Under the pieces are notes generated by a model. It made no database searches and was not told the origin of the DNA. It worked only from the letters and a program-made list of their open reading frames with translations. A DNA stretch of 5,194 nucleotides. It comes from Candidatus Wukongarchaeum yapensis (GTDB lineage: Archaea; Asgardarchaeota; Wukongarchaeia; Wukongarchaeales; Wukongarchaeaceae). The stretch lies in assembly GCA_016840425.1 (NCBI GenBank), contig JAEOSI010000167.1:1-5194 (forward strand), written 5' to 3'. Below are positions 1 to 4,309 of the stretch, piece by piece (positions within the stretch are counted from its first letter, which is position 1; every line of letters starts with the position of its first letter). A program made the translations under genes and the position numbers.

Positions 1-293
1 CTATAGGCTACGAAAACATAAGGTTGAGTTGGACATTTTGCAGCAACCGAGTGCCCCTGACCTTGAACGTTTGTAGCTACAAGTCGATTATCTGTAATGT
101 CGATTACGCTGTACTTAATTCCTTGGACGGTTACACTGGGTTGTTTTTCTGCCCATACTTTTAGGAGTTCAGCTCCGTTAATTTCCCAGTTCCCTGAAGT
201 CCAGTAAATGCTCCCATCGTTTATGTTTACTATGACCAATGCTTGAATCGTTCCCGCCTTAATCATTCTCTCGTAATCTTGCTGAAAACTCAT
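1..293 (-). CDS. Asgard-type profilin (3'-truncated by window edge)
   Basis: Not in the ORF track. Manual translation from ATG at 293 gives MSFQQDYERMIKAGTIQALVIVNINDGSIYWTSGNWEINGAELLKVWAEKQPSVTVQGIKYSVIDITDNRLVATNVQGQGHSVAAKCPTQPYVFVAY..., open to the edge. The segments NW, S-v-T-v-QGIKYS-v, R-l-vaTN-v-qGqGH and the final AY match the pattern I recognise from Loki/Odin profilins. An SD (GAGGAG) lies 7 nt upstream. Confidence 0.9.
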   Translation of the reverse strand, partial: MSFQQDYERMIKAGTIQALVIVNINDGSIYWTSGNWEINGAELLKVWAEKQPSVTVQGIKYSVIDITDNRLVATNVQGQGHSVAAKCPTQPYVFVAY

Positions 294-425: not shown

Positions 426-2699
426 TTATATTTGTATGTATATTTTGTCGTTGGTTATCTTTGTTATTTTTTTTAGTGGAATGGTTTTTGTGCCTAATAG
501 TTCTAGCAGTTGGTTATAGTTTTCTTTTTCTGTTATTATTCCTTTTTCTATGGCATATTTAATAATTGTTTCGGGGCATAAGGCGGTTTCTGTGCTTTCT
601 TTTAAAGTGTTTAGTATATTGGTTTTTTCTTCTTCTTCGAACTCTTCTAAGGCGGTTTCTTCTAAGGTTTTTGTGCTGTATTGAAGTACTAGTTCTTCTC
701 CGTTTTCATTCTTTTCTATTGTTATCCCGATGGCTGTGCCTAAGGGATTTTCTTCTTGGTCTACTACTTTTTTACAGGCGACGGGATAGGCGTGTTTTAT
801 TGGTTTCTGAAATGCATTTCTTTTTAAAATAACGCGATCTTTCATTGTTTCGGATATAAAACCCATGAAAACCCATTTTAGGTATCCGCTAATCACTTCG
901 TGGGGGGGTAGGGGTATTTGTTCTAATAGGCAAAATTTTGCGAGTATTTCAGGGTTTAAAGCATCTCCTTCTCCTATGTTTAATTTTTTTGCTATTGAAA
1001 ATCTTAAATACCACAATTTTTCTTCATAATCGTTTTTTATTGATTTTTTCAAATTTTTTAGTGTTTGATCTAAAATTTTTTTGTCGGGGTAAAAGGCTTC
1101 ATAAACGAGAATTGCACCGTTATTTGGGTGGTTAAGGATCTCGATTATGGTGCCTAAATGTTTTTGTAAATGGGAGGTTAGGGGTTTTTTTGTGAGAGTT
1201 TTTTCTTCTATTTTGGAAATAGGAAAAGGCACTATTTTCATCTTAGCGAGGTGTTTTCTTTGATCAGTATTAAGGAGATTTATGTCGTTTTCATTAGCGA
1301 TGATTGTCCCGTTTTCCCTTTTTATTTTTTGGAAGGATATTATGCCTTTGATTTTCTGTTTAAATTCTTCGGGTTTTAGGGGGCACTTAATGTTTTTTTT
1401 CGCGCAATAATTTCGAATATATCTGGGTAAAAGGGCTATATATTCTGGAATTTTCAAAAAAGAGCTTATTTCCGATCTTAAGTATTCTTTTCGCTGTTCT
1501 GAGTCGCTTTCAAATGATCCGGGATGCATCGTTTCAAAAACCCTATCTAAGGACTCGTGGGATGGTTCATTTTCAATCAATATTGGGATCGTGATGGAAC
1601 CTTGGTGTAACAAAGGAGGACCGGTAAAACCGATAAATCTTTTTTGAGCATCGGCTATGATTTTATCGACGATATCCCATGCTGCGATAGCATCATTATT
1701 TTTTAAAAGAGCTGAAATATCATCTGATTTTTCAGGAGGCTCTTCACTTTTAGGCTCATCAAAAAAGGGTTTCTCAGGAGCACTAATCTTTTTCATCGGT
1801 ATACGTATACCCTTTTCTTTTGAAGCACTATCACTCTTTTTTTCTCCATATACGAGGAGGGGCATGAGGGATTTTTGATCCATTTCTTCTATCTTTTGAA
1901 TGATTTTCGGAGGTAGAATTGAGGAAAATTTCACAATATCAGAGGATAATAGGTTGATGTGTGTTTGTAAAGCAGAGATTTCTTCTCGTAACTTTTCTGG
2001 GTGGTCTTTTTTTTCTTTAAGTTCTTTCTTTTTTTCCTGTAATTTATCTTTAAGAATTTGTAAGTAGGTTTTGTATTCTTTTATTTCTTCCCCTAGAGCT
2101 TTAGCGGTCTCCATATATTCTTTTTCCAAAGCGGTCTTTTGAGTTCTTAATGAGTAAGTTGTATCCCCTTTTTTAATCTCTTTTTCTAAAGTGAAGAGTT
2201 TCCCCTTTAAATCGCGGGATTTTCTATATAAGTCCATAATTTTTGGCTGATTCTCTTCTAAAAAGCGGGTGTGTGCAGCTACCTTTTGGTTCAAATTGTT
2301 AATTTTGTTTTGATACTCTTTTACCTGTGGCCATTTTTTTAACCCTCCACCCTTTTTCTTTATTTTTTCTGAAAGTTGGTAGAGTTTAAAAGCATAAATG
2401 CTGCGTTCTTTAGAAAATTGAAGAAGTCTTCTCTTTATTTCCAAATTTTCATGCAAAGTAATCGGGATTTCTTTTTCTAAACTTTTAAGTTTCCTTTGCT
2501 CTATTTTTCCCTCCTCTAATGTCTTTTCTTCCTTTTCTTTGACCTTTTCAGACTTTTCTTTTGATGCTTTTTCTTCCTCAATTTCTGAAAGTTTTTGAAG
2601 ATATGTTTTTGTTAAATCCTCGTATGTTACCTCATCAATCTCTCCCGACCTAAACTTCTCTTCAAGCTGATCCAGCAAAAACCTTATTCGCTTCTCCAT
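426..2699 (-). CDS. 757-aa hypothetical protein: N-terminal SHOCT/CdvA-like helical motif, Lys/Glu-rich coiled coil (~aa 41-260), Pro/acidic linker (~285-326), three tandem ~125-140-aa repeats resembling PRC barrels split by a helical insert
   Basis: Long uninterrupted ORF with K/E-rich heptad-like N-terminal half. Internal repeat motifs are visible by eye (see repeat feature). Function is not identified. Confidence 0.9.
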   Translation of the reverse strand: MEKRIRFLLDQLEEKFRSGEIDEVTYEDLTKTYLQKLSEIEEEKASKEKSEKVKEKEEKTLEEGKIEQRKLKSLEKEIPITLHENLEIKRRLLQFSKERSIYAFKLYQLSEKIKKKGGGLKKWPQVKEYQNKINNLNQKVAAHTRFLEENQPKIMDLYRKSRDLKGKLFTLEKEIKKGDTTYSLRTQKTALEKEYMETAKALGEEIKEYKTYLQILKDKLQEKKKELKEKKDHPEKLREEISALQTHINLLSSDIVKFSSILPPKIIQKIEEMDQKSLMPLLVYGEKKSDSASKEKGIRIPMKKISAPEKPFFDEPKSEEPPEKSDDISALLKNNDAIAAWDIVDKIIADAQKRFIGFTGPPLLHQGSITIPILIENEPSHESLDRVFETMHPGSFESDSEQRKEYLRSEISSFLKIPEYIALLPRYIRNYCAKKNIKCPLKPEEFKQKIKGIISFQKIKRENGTIIANENDINLLNTDQRKHLAKMKIVPFPISKIEEKTLTKKPLTSHLQKHLGTIIEILNHPNNGAILVYEAFYPDKKILDQTLKNLKKSIKNDYEEKLWYLRFSIAKKLNIGEGDALNPEILAKFCLLEQIPLPPHEVISGYLKWVFMGFISETMKDRVILKRNAFQKPIKHAYPVACKKVVDQEENPLGTAIGITIEKNENGEELVLQYSTKTLEETALEEFEEEEKTNILNTLKESTETALCPETIIKYAIEKGIITEKENYNQLLELLGTKTIPLKKITKITNDKIYIQI
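429..1691 (-). repeat. Three tandem protein-level repeats in the 757-aa ORF (aa ~337-470, ~490-627, ~636-757)
   Basis: Repeat starts: DKIIADAQKRFIG / KKPLTSHLQKHLG / KKVVDQEENPLG. Helical inserts: YLRSEISSFLKIPEYIALLPRYIRNYC / YLRFSIAKKLNIGEGDALNPEILAKFC / ILNTLKESTETALCPETIIKYA (ALxP at aa 422, 580, 706). Repeat ends: IISFQKIKRENGTIIA / VFMGFISETMKDRVIL / TIPLKKITKITNDKIYI. Confidence 0.65.
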
Positions 2700-3519: not shown

Positions 3520-3569
3520 GGGCAGCTTTCTTGTTTTTAACTTTGTCGGCGGGAAGTCTCCCTGCGAAA

Positions 3570-3594
3570 CAGTCTATCCGCGTGTTAAATGCTT
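3570..3594. repeat. Left TIR of MITE (preceded by TSD GAAA 3566-3569)
   Basis: 20/25 ungapped identity to the reverse complement of 3851-3875; the first 7 nt are identical. Confidence 0.85.
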
Positions 3595-3609
3595 GGTTGG
3601 TTAAATAGA

Positions 3610-3843
3610 TCACTTCCTTATGAAATAGGTTTTTTCAGGGGTTCGTCGGAGCGGTGGTTTGTCGGGGAAGTCTATTGTCCGTCTCAACAAGCGGAAGAGA
3701 AGAGCTGCTTTACTTCTATTCTGATAGTGTTCGATGGCCTTCTTGAAATCGTGACGCCCTCTATGATCGGTGGAAAAAAGGGATAAGTTGCCCGTTACGA
3801 CGGCATAACTCCACTTACTTCAACTTTTCCCAAAAACAACCAT
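3610..3843 (-). pseudogene. Possible degenerate IS4-superfamily transposase fragment inside the MITE
   Basis: The frame reads MVVFGKS*SKWSYAVVTGNLSLFSTDHRGRHDFKKAIEHYQNRSKAALLFRLLRRTIDFPDKPPLRRTPEKTYFIRK*. YQNRSKAALLFRLLR has the spacing of Y-(2)-R-(3)-E-(3)-R/(6)-K, but Ala replaces the catalytic Glu. The resemblance is weak. Confidence 0.35.
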
Positions 3844-3850
3844 CTAAAAA

Positions 3851-3875
3851 AAACACTTAAAACACGGGTAGACTG
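3851..3875. repeat. Right TIR of MITE (followed by TSD GAAA 3876-3879)
   Basis: Reverse complement is CAGTCTACCCGTGTTTTAAGTGTTT. Confidence 0.85.
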
Positions 3876-3904
3876 GAAAGCTGGGGGATGAAAGCCGAAT
3901 AATA

Positions 3905-3918
3905 ACAAGATATTTATA
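3905..3918 (+). promoter_or_regulatory. Putative archaeal BRE/TATA promoter driving the omega-RNA (former tnpB promoter)
   Basis: Purine-rich ACAAGATA is followed by TTTATA (3913-3918), about 20-25 nt upstream of the start of the structured region and of ATG 3936. Confidence 0.5.
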
Positions 3919-3935
3919 GTCATAATAATAACAAT

Positions 3936-4060
3936 ATGAGAGCGTAGGGTAGGGACTACCCGAATTTACGCCTGCGGAGACAGAACCTCTACCGGGAGAA
4001 ATCTCGGCAAGTTCAGTCGTTGAACCAGGAAGCTCCCTGCGACTGCTGGAAGTAGTTCAC
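3936..4060 (+). pseudogene. tnpB: tnpB remnant (possible first codons plus 3' tail only)
   Basis: 3944-4060 translates as VG*GLPEFTPAETEPLPGEISASSVVEPGSSLRLLEVVH, the typical low-complexity C-terminal tail that overlaps the TnpB right-end RNA. ATG AGA GCG TA at 3936 resembles a TnpB start (MRAY...). All nuclease domains are absent. Confidence 0.6.
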
Positions 4061-4080
4061 TCATTCTTCCTCTTCTTATT
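3940..4080 (+). ncRNA. TnpB omega-RNA (reRNA): ~120-nt scaffold ending at TCAC 4060 plus flank-derived guide UCAUUCUUCCUCUUCU...
   Basis: Stems seen by eye: CGTAGG(3943-48)/CCTGCG(3971-76); GGGTAG-gga-CTACCC (3947-3961); CCGGGA-GAAA-TCTCGG (3992-4007); GTTCA-gtcgt-TGAAC (4011-4025), with alternative pairing of TGAAC to the terminal GTTCA (4055-59); and the right-end hairpin 4033-4052. It ends in GTAGTTCAC, typical of IS605/IS1341 right ends. The 5' and 3' limits are estimates. Confidence 0.75.
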
Positions 4081-4309
4081 TTTTGCTGAACAGTTTATGT
4101 TTTGGTTTTACGACGCAGTTGGGGCATACACGCATTGTTCTGAGTCGGCGATGGGGATAGTCGTCCACGTAAACCGCCATCCATCTAGCACAGTCTGAGC
4201 AAACGTATTTTCCACAGTAACGACAGCGGTAGTGCTCTTCGTTAGGAACCTCATTTTTTCCGCATATTTCGCATAAAACCTTCTTCGGGTCGTCTGATGA
4301 TTTACTCAA
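4076..4309 (-). CDS. 77-aa 8-Cys zinc-finger protein, FYVE-like / DUF2180-like
   Basis: Four CxxC pairs (C13/16, C29/32, C37/40, C62/65), with HYRCRYCGKYVCSDC and MRVCPNC. TTG start with a strong SD (GGAGGT, 6-nt spacer). It lies 34 nt downstream of the CBS gene. Confidence 0.9.
   Translation of the reverse strand: MSKSSDDPKKVLCEICGKNEVPNEEHYRCRYCGKYVCSDCARWMAVYVDDYPHRRLRTMRVCPNCVVKPKHKLFSKK
4079..4084 (+). terminator. Possible oligo(T) terminator bounding the omega-RNA guide
   Basis: T6 run 18 nt downstream of the right end, preceded by a pyrimidine-rich tract. It coincides with the antisense of the Lys codons ending the zinc-finger gene. Confidence 0.3.

What the first reader, a model, noticed from the sequence alone, without database searches (positions are those of the whole stretch)
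3558..3887. MITE inserted precisely into the GAAA loop of the IS200/605 left-end hairpin
The duplicated target GAAA is exactly the tetraloop of the TnpA-recognition hairpin (CTCCCTGC-GAAA-GCTGGGGG). This should disable excision of the host element and fix the guide cassette in place. On single-stranded DNA the MITE TIRs could also pair and extend the hairpin, so the PATE might still move and carry the MITE as cargo. Either outcome is an element-on-element interaction, and it may reflect a targeting preference for extruded hairpin loops.
Basis: partly seen in the sequence, partly recalled or inferred. Interest (0 to 1): 0.65.

Follow-up and report, generated by a model that had tools for sequence, protein, structure and literature searches.

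The report
Small transposon lodged in IS605 hairpin loop
A 306-base gene-less jumping element sits exactly in the four-base loop of the end hairpin of another miniature (IS200/IS605-type) mobile element in an Asgard archaeon, and every copy of it in this genome lies at that same spot, which points to targeted insertion; similar element-on-element attacks were described in salt-loving archaea in 2011.

Summary
Window 3570-3875 is a 306-bp non-coding element with about 20-bp terminal inverted repeats. It is flanked by a duplicated GAAA (3566-69 and 3876-79).

- **Host element.** The host is a 210-bp TnpB-type IS200/IS605 miniature (PATE), 3541-4060 with the insert. A sister species has an empty site that fixes its boundaries: ...TTTTTAA|TCATTC....
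- **Uninterrupted paralogues.** C268 (93% identical) and six subfamily-B copies read ...TGC-GAAA-GCT... intact.
- **Other insert copies in this genome.** All insert-derived pieces with a readable junction abut this left-end loop: C253 (full length, 75% identical, same GAAA duplication), C121 (truncated) and probably C117 (inverted).
- **Independent hits.** The two complete insert-bearing hosts belong to different PATE subfamilies (AU test p = 5e-57). Independent hits on the palindrome axis are therefore the most parsimonious reading (about 0.6). An old composite carried as cargo and repeatedly lost is the main rival.
- **Not tested.** Whether excision of the host is blocked could not be tested.
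- **No parent found.** No autonomous parent or further copies turned up in 400 Asgard genomes, species representatives, or viral and metagenome scans.

The kind is known. Haloquadratum SMR-A repeats and MITEs insert in PATE/IS605 palindromes (PMC3119063), and several IS families target REP hairpins (PMC1525189). Earlier notes from this scan describe loop-nested repeats in other genomes. Verdict: a new member of a known kind, of moderate interest.

The parts
3534..3540 (+). Flanking target word TTTTTAA, 3' of which the host PATE is inserted.
   Evidence: The sister-species empty site reads ...GTTTTTAA|TCATTCTTCC.... Nearly all paralogous copies are preceded by TTTAAC or TTAAC.
3541..4060 (+). 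Composite unit of 520 nt: a 210-nt TnpB-type IS200/IS605 miniature (PATE, subfamily A) carrying the 306-bp insert plus a 4-bp duplication.
   Evidence: Absent from the orthologous site of G001:C15. With the insert removed it is 93% identical to the empty copy C268:8872-9083.
3541..3565 (+). Left half of the left-end structure: outer-stem arm TCGGC (3546-3550) and inner-stem arm GTCTCCC-T-GC (3556-3565).
   Evidence: Single-stranded DNA fold of the restored left end. Conserved in about 17 paralogues and in 14 other Asgard genomes.
3566..3569 (+). GAAA, the hairpin tetraloop and left copy of the target-site duplication.
3570..3875 (+). 306-bp non-coding MITE-like element with terminal inverted repeats.
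   Evidence: Empty-site paralogues. A second copy, C253:10002-10271, is 75% identical with indels of 28, 16 and 7 nt, so no conserved reading frame. The 65-aa ORF at 3589-3786 has no Pfam hit.
3570..3591 (+). Left terminal inverted repeat, CAGTCTATCCGCGTGTTAAATG.
3854..3875 (+). Right terminal inverted repeat (reverse complement CAGTCTACCCGTGTTTTAAGTG).
   Evidence: Matches the left repeat at 18 of 22 positions.
3876..3879 (+). GAAA, right copy of the target-site duplication.
3880..3898 (+). Right half of the left-end structure: GC-T-GGGGGAT (inner stem), GAAA, GCCGA (outer stem).
3899..3944 (+). AT-rich spacer of the PATE with a conserved TTTATA (3913-3918).
   Evidence: Conserved in PATE subfamilies A and B. 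The promoter reading is inference only.
3945..4060 (+). Right end of the PATE: 116 nt homologous to the 3' end of tnpB genes (the region where the omega-RNA scaffold is expected), the right-end hairpin CTCCCTGC-GACT-GCTGGAAG (4033-4052), and the terminal TAGTTCAC.
   Evidence: 86-91% identical to the 3' ends of TnpB ORFs on C137, C59, C205, C134 and others. TnpB domains were confirmed for family members.

Best explanation
A non-autonomous transposon of 306 bp, with about 20-bp terminal inverted repeats, was pasted into the centre of the left-end palindrome of a 210-bp transposase-less IS200/IS605 (TnpB-type) miniature.

Its transposase is unknown. It is supplied in trans and is most likely of the DDE cut-and-paste or copy-and-paste type. 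It made cuts staggered by 4 bp at the two stem-loop junctions, so the whole GAAA tetraloop was duplicated. This step is shown.

The transposase is site-selective for this palindrome axis. The same position was hit independently in at least two, and probably three or four, different copies of the host family. This step is inferred from phylogeny and parsimony.

The likely consequence is that the hairpin tip which the Y1 transposase TnpA must bind now carries a 310-nt insert. The interrupted PATE, with its omega-RNA/guide end, is then frozen in place. This step is inferred and untested.
For: **Insertion, inverted repeats and duplication.**

**The duplication is target-derived.** The partial copies have GCAA and TTGC flanks instead of GAAA.

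**The host is an IS200/IS605 PATE.**
- Its right end matches the 3' ends of tnpB genes.
- The sister-species empty site shows no duplication and insertion 3' of TTTAA.

**Every copy touches this element family.**
- All insert-derived sequences in the 2.16-Mb genome touch IS200/IS605 DNA.
- Three abut the loop of this left-end family: C175, C253 and C121. C117 abuts a degenerate left-end arm in the inverted orientation (P about 0.007). C61 is fused to a truncated tnpB.
- About 3 of roughly 20 left ends are occupied.
- 45 other GCGAAAGC sites outside IS ends are not hit.

**Independence of the insertions.**
- C175's host is 93% identical to the empty copy C268.
- C253's host is 94-96% identical to six empty subfamily-B copies and differs from their consensus only by 4 private changes.
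- The two hosts are 80% identical to each other, and the two inserts 75%.
- An AU test rejects the two hosts as a clade (delta lnL 79, p = 5e-57). They are monophyletic in 0 of 200 bootstrap trees.
- The C121 insert end is closer to C175's (82%) than to C253's (74%), although its left-end arm is closer to C253's (93% against 83%).

**Precedent for axis-centred insertion with short duplications.** ISPsy8 and ISRm22 in REPs (PMC1525189). SMR-A elements and MITEs in PATE/IS605 palindromes (PMC3119063).
Against: - There are only 2 complete and 2-3 partial copies, so the statistics are thin.
- No autonomous parent and no source copies were found.
- Insert divergence (25%) is close to host divergence (20%). 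Co-divergence of an old composite would predict exactly this.
- Trace-free, repeat-mediated loss of transposons flanked by target duplications is documented in haloarchaea (PMC3119063). Repeated loss is therefore mechanistically possible.
- The three clear insertions share one orientation.
- Right-end hairpins with the same 12-nt core (4 copies) are not hit.
- No test of TnpA binding or excision was possible.
Confidence: 0.6

Rival explanations
1. One ancient insertion produced a composite. The Y1 transposase kept moving it as a unit, because the insert's inverted repeats pair and merely lengthen the hairpin. The insert co-diverged with its host. Empty PATEs arose repeatedly by trace-free deletion between the two GAAA copies and then amplified.
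For: - The predicted single-stranded DNA fold keeps both left-end stems with the inverted-repeat stem on top.
- The composites lie at different loci, each 3' of TTTAAC.
- Insert divergence (75% identity) is similar to host divergence (80%).
- All three clear copies have the same orientation.
- Repeat-mediated trace-free removal of transposons is reported in Haloquadratum (PMC3119063).
Against: - It needs one gain plus at least four precise losses (the C268, C201, C147 and subfamily-B lineages) and at least three composite transpositions. The targeted-insertion model needs only 2-4 gains.
- C253's host is an ordinary member of the star-like subfamily-B burst.
- The insert and left-end similarities of C121 are incongruent.
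- C117 appears to be inverted.
- No composite exists in the sister species G001, although it carries the IS family.
- No two composites are closely related.
Confidence: 0.22
2. The insert is not a DDE-type MITE. It belongs to the enigmatic SMR-A-like class, or to another element moved by a single-strand or hairpin-specific enzyme (HUH/Y1-like or a recombinase). That enzyme would recognise the extruded loop. The GAAA repeat would then be a by-product of that chemistry.
For: - No DDE transposase with matching inverted repeats occurs in the genome or the searched collections.
- The target is a single-stranded loop within GCGAAAGC. From general knowledge, this motif forms an unusually stable DNA mini-hairpin.
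- Haloquadratum SMR-A elements have prominent inverted repeats and the same target class, and their mobilisation is unexplained (PMC3119063).
- Earlier notes from this scan report small inserts at fixed positions in repeat hairpin loops elsewhere.
Against: - A true 4-bp target duplication plus about 20-bp terminal inverted repeats is the signature of DDE transposition. SMR-A elements make no duplication and are about 110 bp.
- No conserved subterminal hairpins were seen at the insert's own ends by eye, comparing C175, C253 and C121.
- Y1 elements insert without duplication.
Confidence: 0.13
3. The shared position is secondary. The insert was copied from one left end to others by gene conversion or recombination between homologous PATE flanks, with no site preference of a transposase.
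For: The left-end flanks are 83-93% identical between copies and could prime recombination.
Against: - The flanks of C253 are pure subfamily-B sequence on both sides and those of C175 are pure subfamily A. A conversion tract would have to coincide exactly with the insert.
- The inserts are only 75% identical.
- Only 29 nt of homology exist to the left.
Confidence: 0.05

Closest known systems
[quoted passage not shown] 2011, PMC3119063)
   Same: - Both are archaeal, gene-less elements with terminal inverted repeats.
- Both have a strong preference for the near-terminal palindromes of PATEs and IS605-type elements. In Haloquadratum, 9 of 19 and 12 of 23 copies of one PATE are hit. Here about 3 of 20 left ends are hit.
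- No cognate transposase is evident in either case.
- The Haloquadratum elements were interpreted as inactivating the host element.
   Different: - SMR-A elements are about 110 bp, make no target duplication and reach up to 54 copies.
- This element is 270-306 bp, duplicates 4 bp (the whole tetraloop) and has 2 full copies.
- It is in an Asgard archaeon, not a haloarchaeon.
REP-targeting insertion sequences: IS1397/ISKpn1/ISPsy8 (IS3 family), ISRm22 (IS4), ISPpu9/10 and IS621 (IS110) (Tobes and Pareja 2006, PMC1525189)
   Same: - Transposable elements that insert at one fixed position of a repeated extragenic palindrome.
- ISPsy8 and ISRm22 insert exactly at the symmetry axis, with short direct repeats of 3 and 6 bp.
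- REPs are relatives of IS200/IS605 end hairpins (PMC3333891 abstract).
   Different: - Those are bacterial, autonomous ISs with known transposases, and they target REPs.
- Here the element is non-autonomous, is in an archaeon, and targets the functional left-end hairpin of a TnpB-type IS miniature.
PATEs (palindrome-associated transposable elements): transposase-less IS200/IS605 derivatives (this comparison concerns the host element)
   Same: - Subterminal imperfect palindromes at both ends.
- No inverted repeats and no duplication.
- Insertion 3' of a fixed word (TTTAA/TTTAAC).
- An internal deletion derivative that keeps the left end and the tnpB 3' region with the right end.
   Different: This is a new family. 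It is widespread in Asgard genomes (15 of 400 genomes by left-end pattern). A cognate TnpA was not found in this assembly.

Membership tests
MITE (non-autonomous DDE-type element) | Terminal inverted repeats | tested here: met
   The termini match at 18 of 22 positions in C175 and 17 of 22 in C253.
MITE (non-autonomous DDE-type element) | Target-site duplication of fixed length, derived from the target | tested here: met
   GAAA/GAAA flanks both full copies. Empty sites carry one GAAA. The partial copies are flanked by GCAA and TTGC.
MITE (non-autonomous DDE-type element) | Too short to encode a transposase, and non-coding | tested here: met
   The copies are 306 and 270 bp. Indels are not multiples of 3. 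The only ORF has no Pfam hit.
MITE (non-autonomous DDE-type element) | An autonomous parent IS sharing the inverted repeats | tested here: not met
   No further ends bearing these inverted repeats were found in the genome, 400 Asgard genomes, GTDB species representatives, metagenome contigs or viral contigs. The assembly is 92% complete and fragmented, so absence is not proven.
MITE (non-autonomous DDE-type element) | Multiple dispersed copies | tested here: inconclusive
   There are 2 full and 3 partial copies, all inside or beside IS200/IS605 DNA.
IS200/IS605 PATE (host element) | Subterminal imperfect palindromes at both ends, with no inverted repeats | tested here: met
   Both the left-end and right-end hairpins share the arm CTCCCTGC and a T.T mismatch.
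IS200/IS605 PATE (host element) | Insertion without duplication, 3' of a conserved short word | tested here: met
   The sister-species empty site reads TTTTTAA|TCATTC. TTTAAC lies upstream of nearly all copies.
IS200/IS605 PATE (host element) | Ends shared with full-length tnpA/tnpB elements | tested here: met
   The right-end 116 nt overlaps the 3' ends of TnpB ORFs. The full-length elements C137 and G001:C37 carry the same left end.
IS200/IS605 PATE (host element) | A cognate Y1 transposase (TnpA) available in trans | tested here: inconclusive
   There is one intact Y1 gene (C70) and one remnant (C117). Both belong to an IS605 family with a different left end.
SMR-A-type repeats (Haloquadratum) | Preference for the near-terminal palindromes of PATE/IS605 elements | tested here: met
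SMR-A-type repeats (Haloquadratum) | No target duplication, and a length of about 110 bp | tested here: not met
   This element makes a 4-bp duplication and is 270-306 bp long. It works like an SMR-A element but is not a member.
REP-targeting IS (IS1397-like) | Autonomous IS with its own transposase that determines the target | tested here: not met
   The element carries no gene, and no parent was found.

The most novel reading that the evidence does not exclude
This element family may be an obligate parasite of IS200/IS605 ends. Its still unknown transposase would recognise the left-end hairpin of TnpB-type elements, either extruded or as a palindrome, and cut at the two stem-loop junctions. 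Each hit would permanently disarm one transposon end and freeze its omega-RNA guide cassette. That would make it an anti-transposon system convergent with Haloquadratum SMR-A, but with a defined, duplication-making chemistry that could be reconstituted.
Probability: 0.3. Interest if true: 0.55.

Novelty: new member of a known kind. Interest (0 to 1): 0.38.

Why it matters
The case is clean and bounded at base-pair resolution. One mobile element has inserted in the recognition hairpin of another, in the archaeal lineage closest to eukaryotes.

If the site preference is real, it extends the targeting of PATE/IS605 palindromes by small repeats from haloarchaea to Asgard archaea. It also adds a variant with a clear 4-bp duplication, which points to a conventional transposase that reads a palindrome axis. 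The mechanism left unexplained for SMR-A elements then becomes approachable.

There is a practical point for annotation. TnpB/omega-RNA cassettes can be split by such inserts and would then be missed or mis-bounded.

Tried and rejected
**Searches that found nothing useful**
- Rfam scan of the window: only a chance CrcZ hit (E = 0.25).
- More copies or a parent of the insert:
  - 40 relatives and 400 genomes of the phylum gave chance hits only (E > 1e-3).
  - The GTDB species-representative pattern scan gave one chance hit in a gammaproteobacterial coding region.
  - The metagenome scan returned only orthologues of my own contigs C121 and C211.
  - The viral contig scan returned nothing.

**Leads rejected**
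- A candidate 3.6-kb unit on C61 bounded by inverted repeats holds housekeeping genes (GNAT, ThiS, AOR). Rejected as a chance pair.
- The 933-aa ORF beside the repeat-like sequence on C211 has no Pfam hit. There is no evidence that it is a transposase.
- The C211 flank is not significantly like a left end (P = 0.65). It is left unclassified.
- The internal near-copy of the left-end flank (3658-3673) is not conserved in the C253 copy. It is probably coincidental.
- A reading of the insert as a Y1-type (IS200/IS605-like) element nested after a target word is rejected. The 4 nt on both sides are target-derived, and the ends are inverted repeats, not subterminal hairpins.

Full report
**Observation**

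The window reads ...GGGAAGTCTCCCTGC-GAAA-CAGTCTATCCGCGTGTTAAATG...(306 bp)...CACTTAAAACACGGGTAGACTG-GAAA-GCTGGGGGATGAAAGCCG.... The insert occupies 3570-3875. Its termini are inverted repeats matching at 18 of 22 positions. GAAA flanks it on both sides.

BLAST of 3520-4080 against the window's own genome (G000, 277 contigs, 2.16 Mb) finds uninterrupted paralogues. In these, the matches to the left and right flanks overlap by exactly four bases (GAAA): C268, C160, C168 and C88. This is classical empty-site evidence for an insertion with a 4-bp target duplication.

The 65-aa ORF inside the insert has no Pfam hit. It is also not conserved in the second copy, which differs by indels of 28, 16 and 7 nt. 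The insert is therefore non-coding.

**What is interrupted**

The flanks belong to a repeat family with more than 30 matches in the genome.

- The last 116 nt (3945-4060) are 86-91% identical to the 3' ends of ORFs with TnpB hallmarks: OrfB_IS605, the Cas12f1-like TNB domain, and HTH_OrfB_IS605. This is where the omega-RNA scaffold of TnpB elements lies.
- The left part is a conserved structure. As single-stranded DNA it folds into a 5-bp outer stem (TCGGC/GCCGA), an internal loop, and a 7+2-bp inner stem with a T.T mismatch closed by GAAA. The right end carries a similar hairpin, CTCCCTGC-GACT-GCTGGAAG.
- The same-genus genome G001 has the orthologous locus. Its flanks are 85-90% identical and its junction is uninterrupted...GTTTTTAA|TCATTCTTCC....

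The element is therefore exactly 3541-4060 (520 nt). It made no duplication and sits 3' of TTTAA. That is IS200/IS605 behaviour.

Without the insert it is a 210-nt transposase-less derivative, a PATE.

The assembly has only one intact Y1 transposase gene (C70) and one remnant (C117). Both belong to an IS605 family with a different left end. The enzyme that moves the host family was not found.

I did not otherwise check the taxonomy.

**Other copies of the insert**

The genome holds one more full copy and several pieces.

| Copy | State | Junction |
|---|---|---|
| C253:10002-10271 | Full, 270 bp, 75% identical | Same position of another PATE, same orientation, again GAAA on both sides |
| C121 | Left 64 nt only | Behind ...CCCCTTGC-GCAA|; the same locus recurs in a metagenome contig |
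| C117:11257 | About 65 nt of the right end | Abuts ...GAAGACCCTTCC-GCAA|, which resembles a left-end left arm (P about 0.007 against random genomic 25-mers); this would be an insertion in the opposite orientation |
| C61 | 40-nt internal piece | Fused to a truncated tnpB |
| C211 | Tandem sequence resembling the inverted repeat | 130 nt from an inverted left end; its flank is not significantly left-end-like |

The GCAA and TTGC flanks of the partial copies show that the four flanking bases come from the target. They are not part of the element, so the duplication is real.

No copy lies away from IS200/IS605 DNA. About 3 of roughly 20 left ends of this family are occupied. The genome has 56 GCGAAAGC sites. 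Eleven unoccupied ones lie in IS ends (7 left ends, 4 right ends). None of the 45 sites outside IS ends is hit.

**One event or several?**

- With the insert removed, the C175 host is 93% identical to the empty copy C268 but only 80% to the C253 host.
- The C253 host is 94-96% identical to six empty copies of a star-like subfamily B. It shares that subfamily's 14-nt deletion and differs from its consensus by four private substitutions.
- A maximum-likelihood tree never joins the two insert-bearing hosts (0 of 200 bootstraps). An AU test rejects their monophyly (delta lnL 79, p = 5e-57).
- The C121 insert end is closer to C175's (82%) than to C253's (74%), while its left-end arm is closer to C253's (93% against 83%).

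Two to four independent insertions at one position are therefore the most parsimonious history. They imply a strong site preference for the palindrome axis.

The rival is an old composite moved as cargo and co-diverging with its host. It needs one gain, at least four trace-free losses and several composite transpositions. I do not dismiss it, for three reasons:

- Insert and host divergences are similar (25% against 20%).
- The three clear copies share one orientation.
- Repeat-mediated, trace-free removal of transposons is documented in haloarchaea (PMC3119063).

**Mechanism**

Shown: cuts staggered by 4 bp at the two stem-loop junctions, placed symmetrically on the palindrome.

Inferred: a transposase supplied in trans, probably DDE-type, that reads the palindrome. 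Sequence cannot tell whether it reads a duplex or an extruded hairpin.

Inferred: the interrupted left end is a poor substrate for TnpA. The only indirect support is that each composite is single-copy while empty subfamily-B copies number six. The predicted fold keeps both left-end stems with the inverted-repeat stem stacked on top, so the cargo idea remains physically plausible.

**Distribution**

The insert was not found in:

- 40 relatives;
- 400 genomes of the phylum;
- GTDB species representatives by inverted-repeat pattern;
- viral contigs.

The metagenome scan returned only orthologues of my own contigs.

The host's left-end arm occurs in 15 of 400 Asgard genomes, with up to 26 copies in one genome. 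About 28 left ends inspected in other genomes are all uninterrupted. G001 has the IS family but no insert.

**Comparison with what is known**

The closest precedent is Haloquadratum walsbyi (Dyall-Smith et al. 2011, PMC3119063).

- Three families of about 110-bp SMR-A repeats have prominent inverted repeats and make no duplication. They insert within the near-terminal palindromes of PATEs and IS605-type transposons. They account for 104 of 192 nesting events, and 9 of 19 copies of one PATE are hit.
- 30 of 31 nested MITE insertions were in such elements.
- The authors proposed that this inactivates IS605-type elements. The mobilisation mechanism was left open.

In bacteria, ISs of five families target REP palindromes. 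ISPsy8 and ISRm22 insert exactly at the symmetry axis, with 3- and 6-bp repeats (PMC1525189). REPs are kin of IS200/IS605 ends (PMC3333891).

Earlier notes of this scan also report small inserts in hairpin loops of repeats in other genomes. I did not check them.

The present element works like these. It differs from SMR-A by its size and its clean 4-bp duplication. It differs from the REP-targeting ISs by being non-autonomous and archaeal.

**Verdict**

The insertion and the site preference hold. The effect on mobility is untested.
- The phenomenon is a new member of a known kind, with moderate interest.

**Limits**

- Very few copies.
- A fragmented MAG, 92% complete.
- No parent element.

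Noticed in passing
L064 (G001:C15) about 2020-2050, against window 3534-3540 and 4061-4080: The sister species has a clean empty site for the whole 520-nt composite: ...GTTTTTAA|TCATTCTTCC.... The PATE arrived, or was precisely excised in G001, after the two species split. The sequence right of the right end (TCATTCTTCCTCTTCTT) would be the omega-RNA guide.
   Followed up: partly
G000:C160 about 808-850 (L103:281); also L083, L084 and L102 (other Asgard genomes): Terminal-only mini-elements of about 45 nt. The left-end left arm and hairpin run straight into the right-end terminus (...GGGAGTAGTTCAC), as if the core were deleted by recombination between the left-end and right-end hairpins. They resemble the 52-bp terminal-only PATEs of Haloquadratum.
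   Followed up: no
G000:C211:860-1140 (L037); orthologue L042: A 63-nt tandem duplication. Each unit ends in a sequence like the insert's left inverted repeat (CAGTCTACCCGYGTATGAAATAG). It lies 130 nt from an inverted left end of another IS200/IS605 subfamily and is followed by a 933-aa ORF (L037:1275-4073) with no Pfam hit.
   Followed up: partly
G000:C61:1141-1204 (L061): A 40-nt piece of the insert's right subterminal region (38 of 39 identical to the C253 copy), lacking the inverted repeat. It sits between a GNAT acetyltransferase gene and a truncated TnpB C-terminus. It looks like the remnant of an insert-bearing full-length IS that suffered a deletion.
   Followed up: partly
It is therefore unlikely to be a functional feature of the element family.
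   Followed up: yes
window 3899-3944 (TTTATA at 3913-3918): The AT-rich spacer with a TTTATA box is conserved in both PATE subfamilies just upstream of the retained omega-RNA-like 3' part. It may act as an archaeal promoter driving a gene-less guide RNA cassette.
   Followed up: no
L073 (G001:C79), left end at about locus 340-300 on the minus strand: A PATE copy in the sister species has an enlarged left-end loop (...CCCCGTTC-GAAGAAAG-GTGGGGG...). It could be an excision footprint of an element flanked by a duplication. This is a single case and speculative.
   Followed up: no
window 3564-3569 + 3880-3881 (restored GCGAAAGC): The restored hairpin tip is d(GCGAAAGC). From general knowledge, this motif forms an exceptionally stable DNA mini-hairpin. 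That may help the left end extrude and could be what a loop-targeting enzyme senses.
   Followed up: no
G000:C117:8440-10000 (L038:1440-3000) and G000:C70:7440-8568 (L039): A second, unrelated IS605 family (tnpA plus tnpB) with left end AAAGCTCAAATCCTYCAGGGTTGAGATGAATTAGGGG. The C117 copy has an internal deletion that leaves a 58-aa TnpA remnant. The C70 copy has the only intact Y1 transposase in the assembly.
   Followed up: partly
window 3-293 (-), 426-2699 (-), 4076-4309 (-): A profilin-domain protein (Pfam 29 bits), a 757-aa protein without a convincing Pfam hit, and a 77-aa FYVE-like zinc finger flank the element. Earlier notes of this scan already cover them.
   Followed up: no
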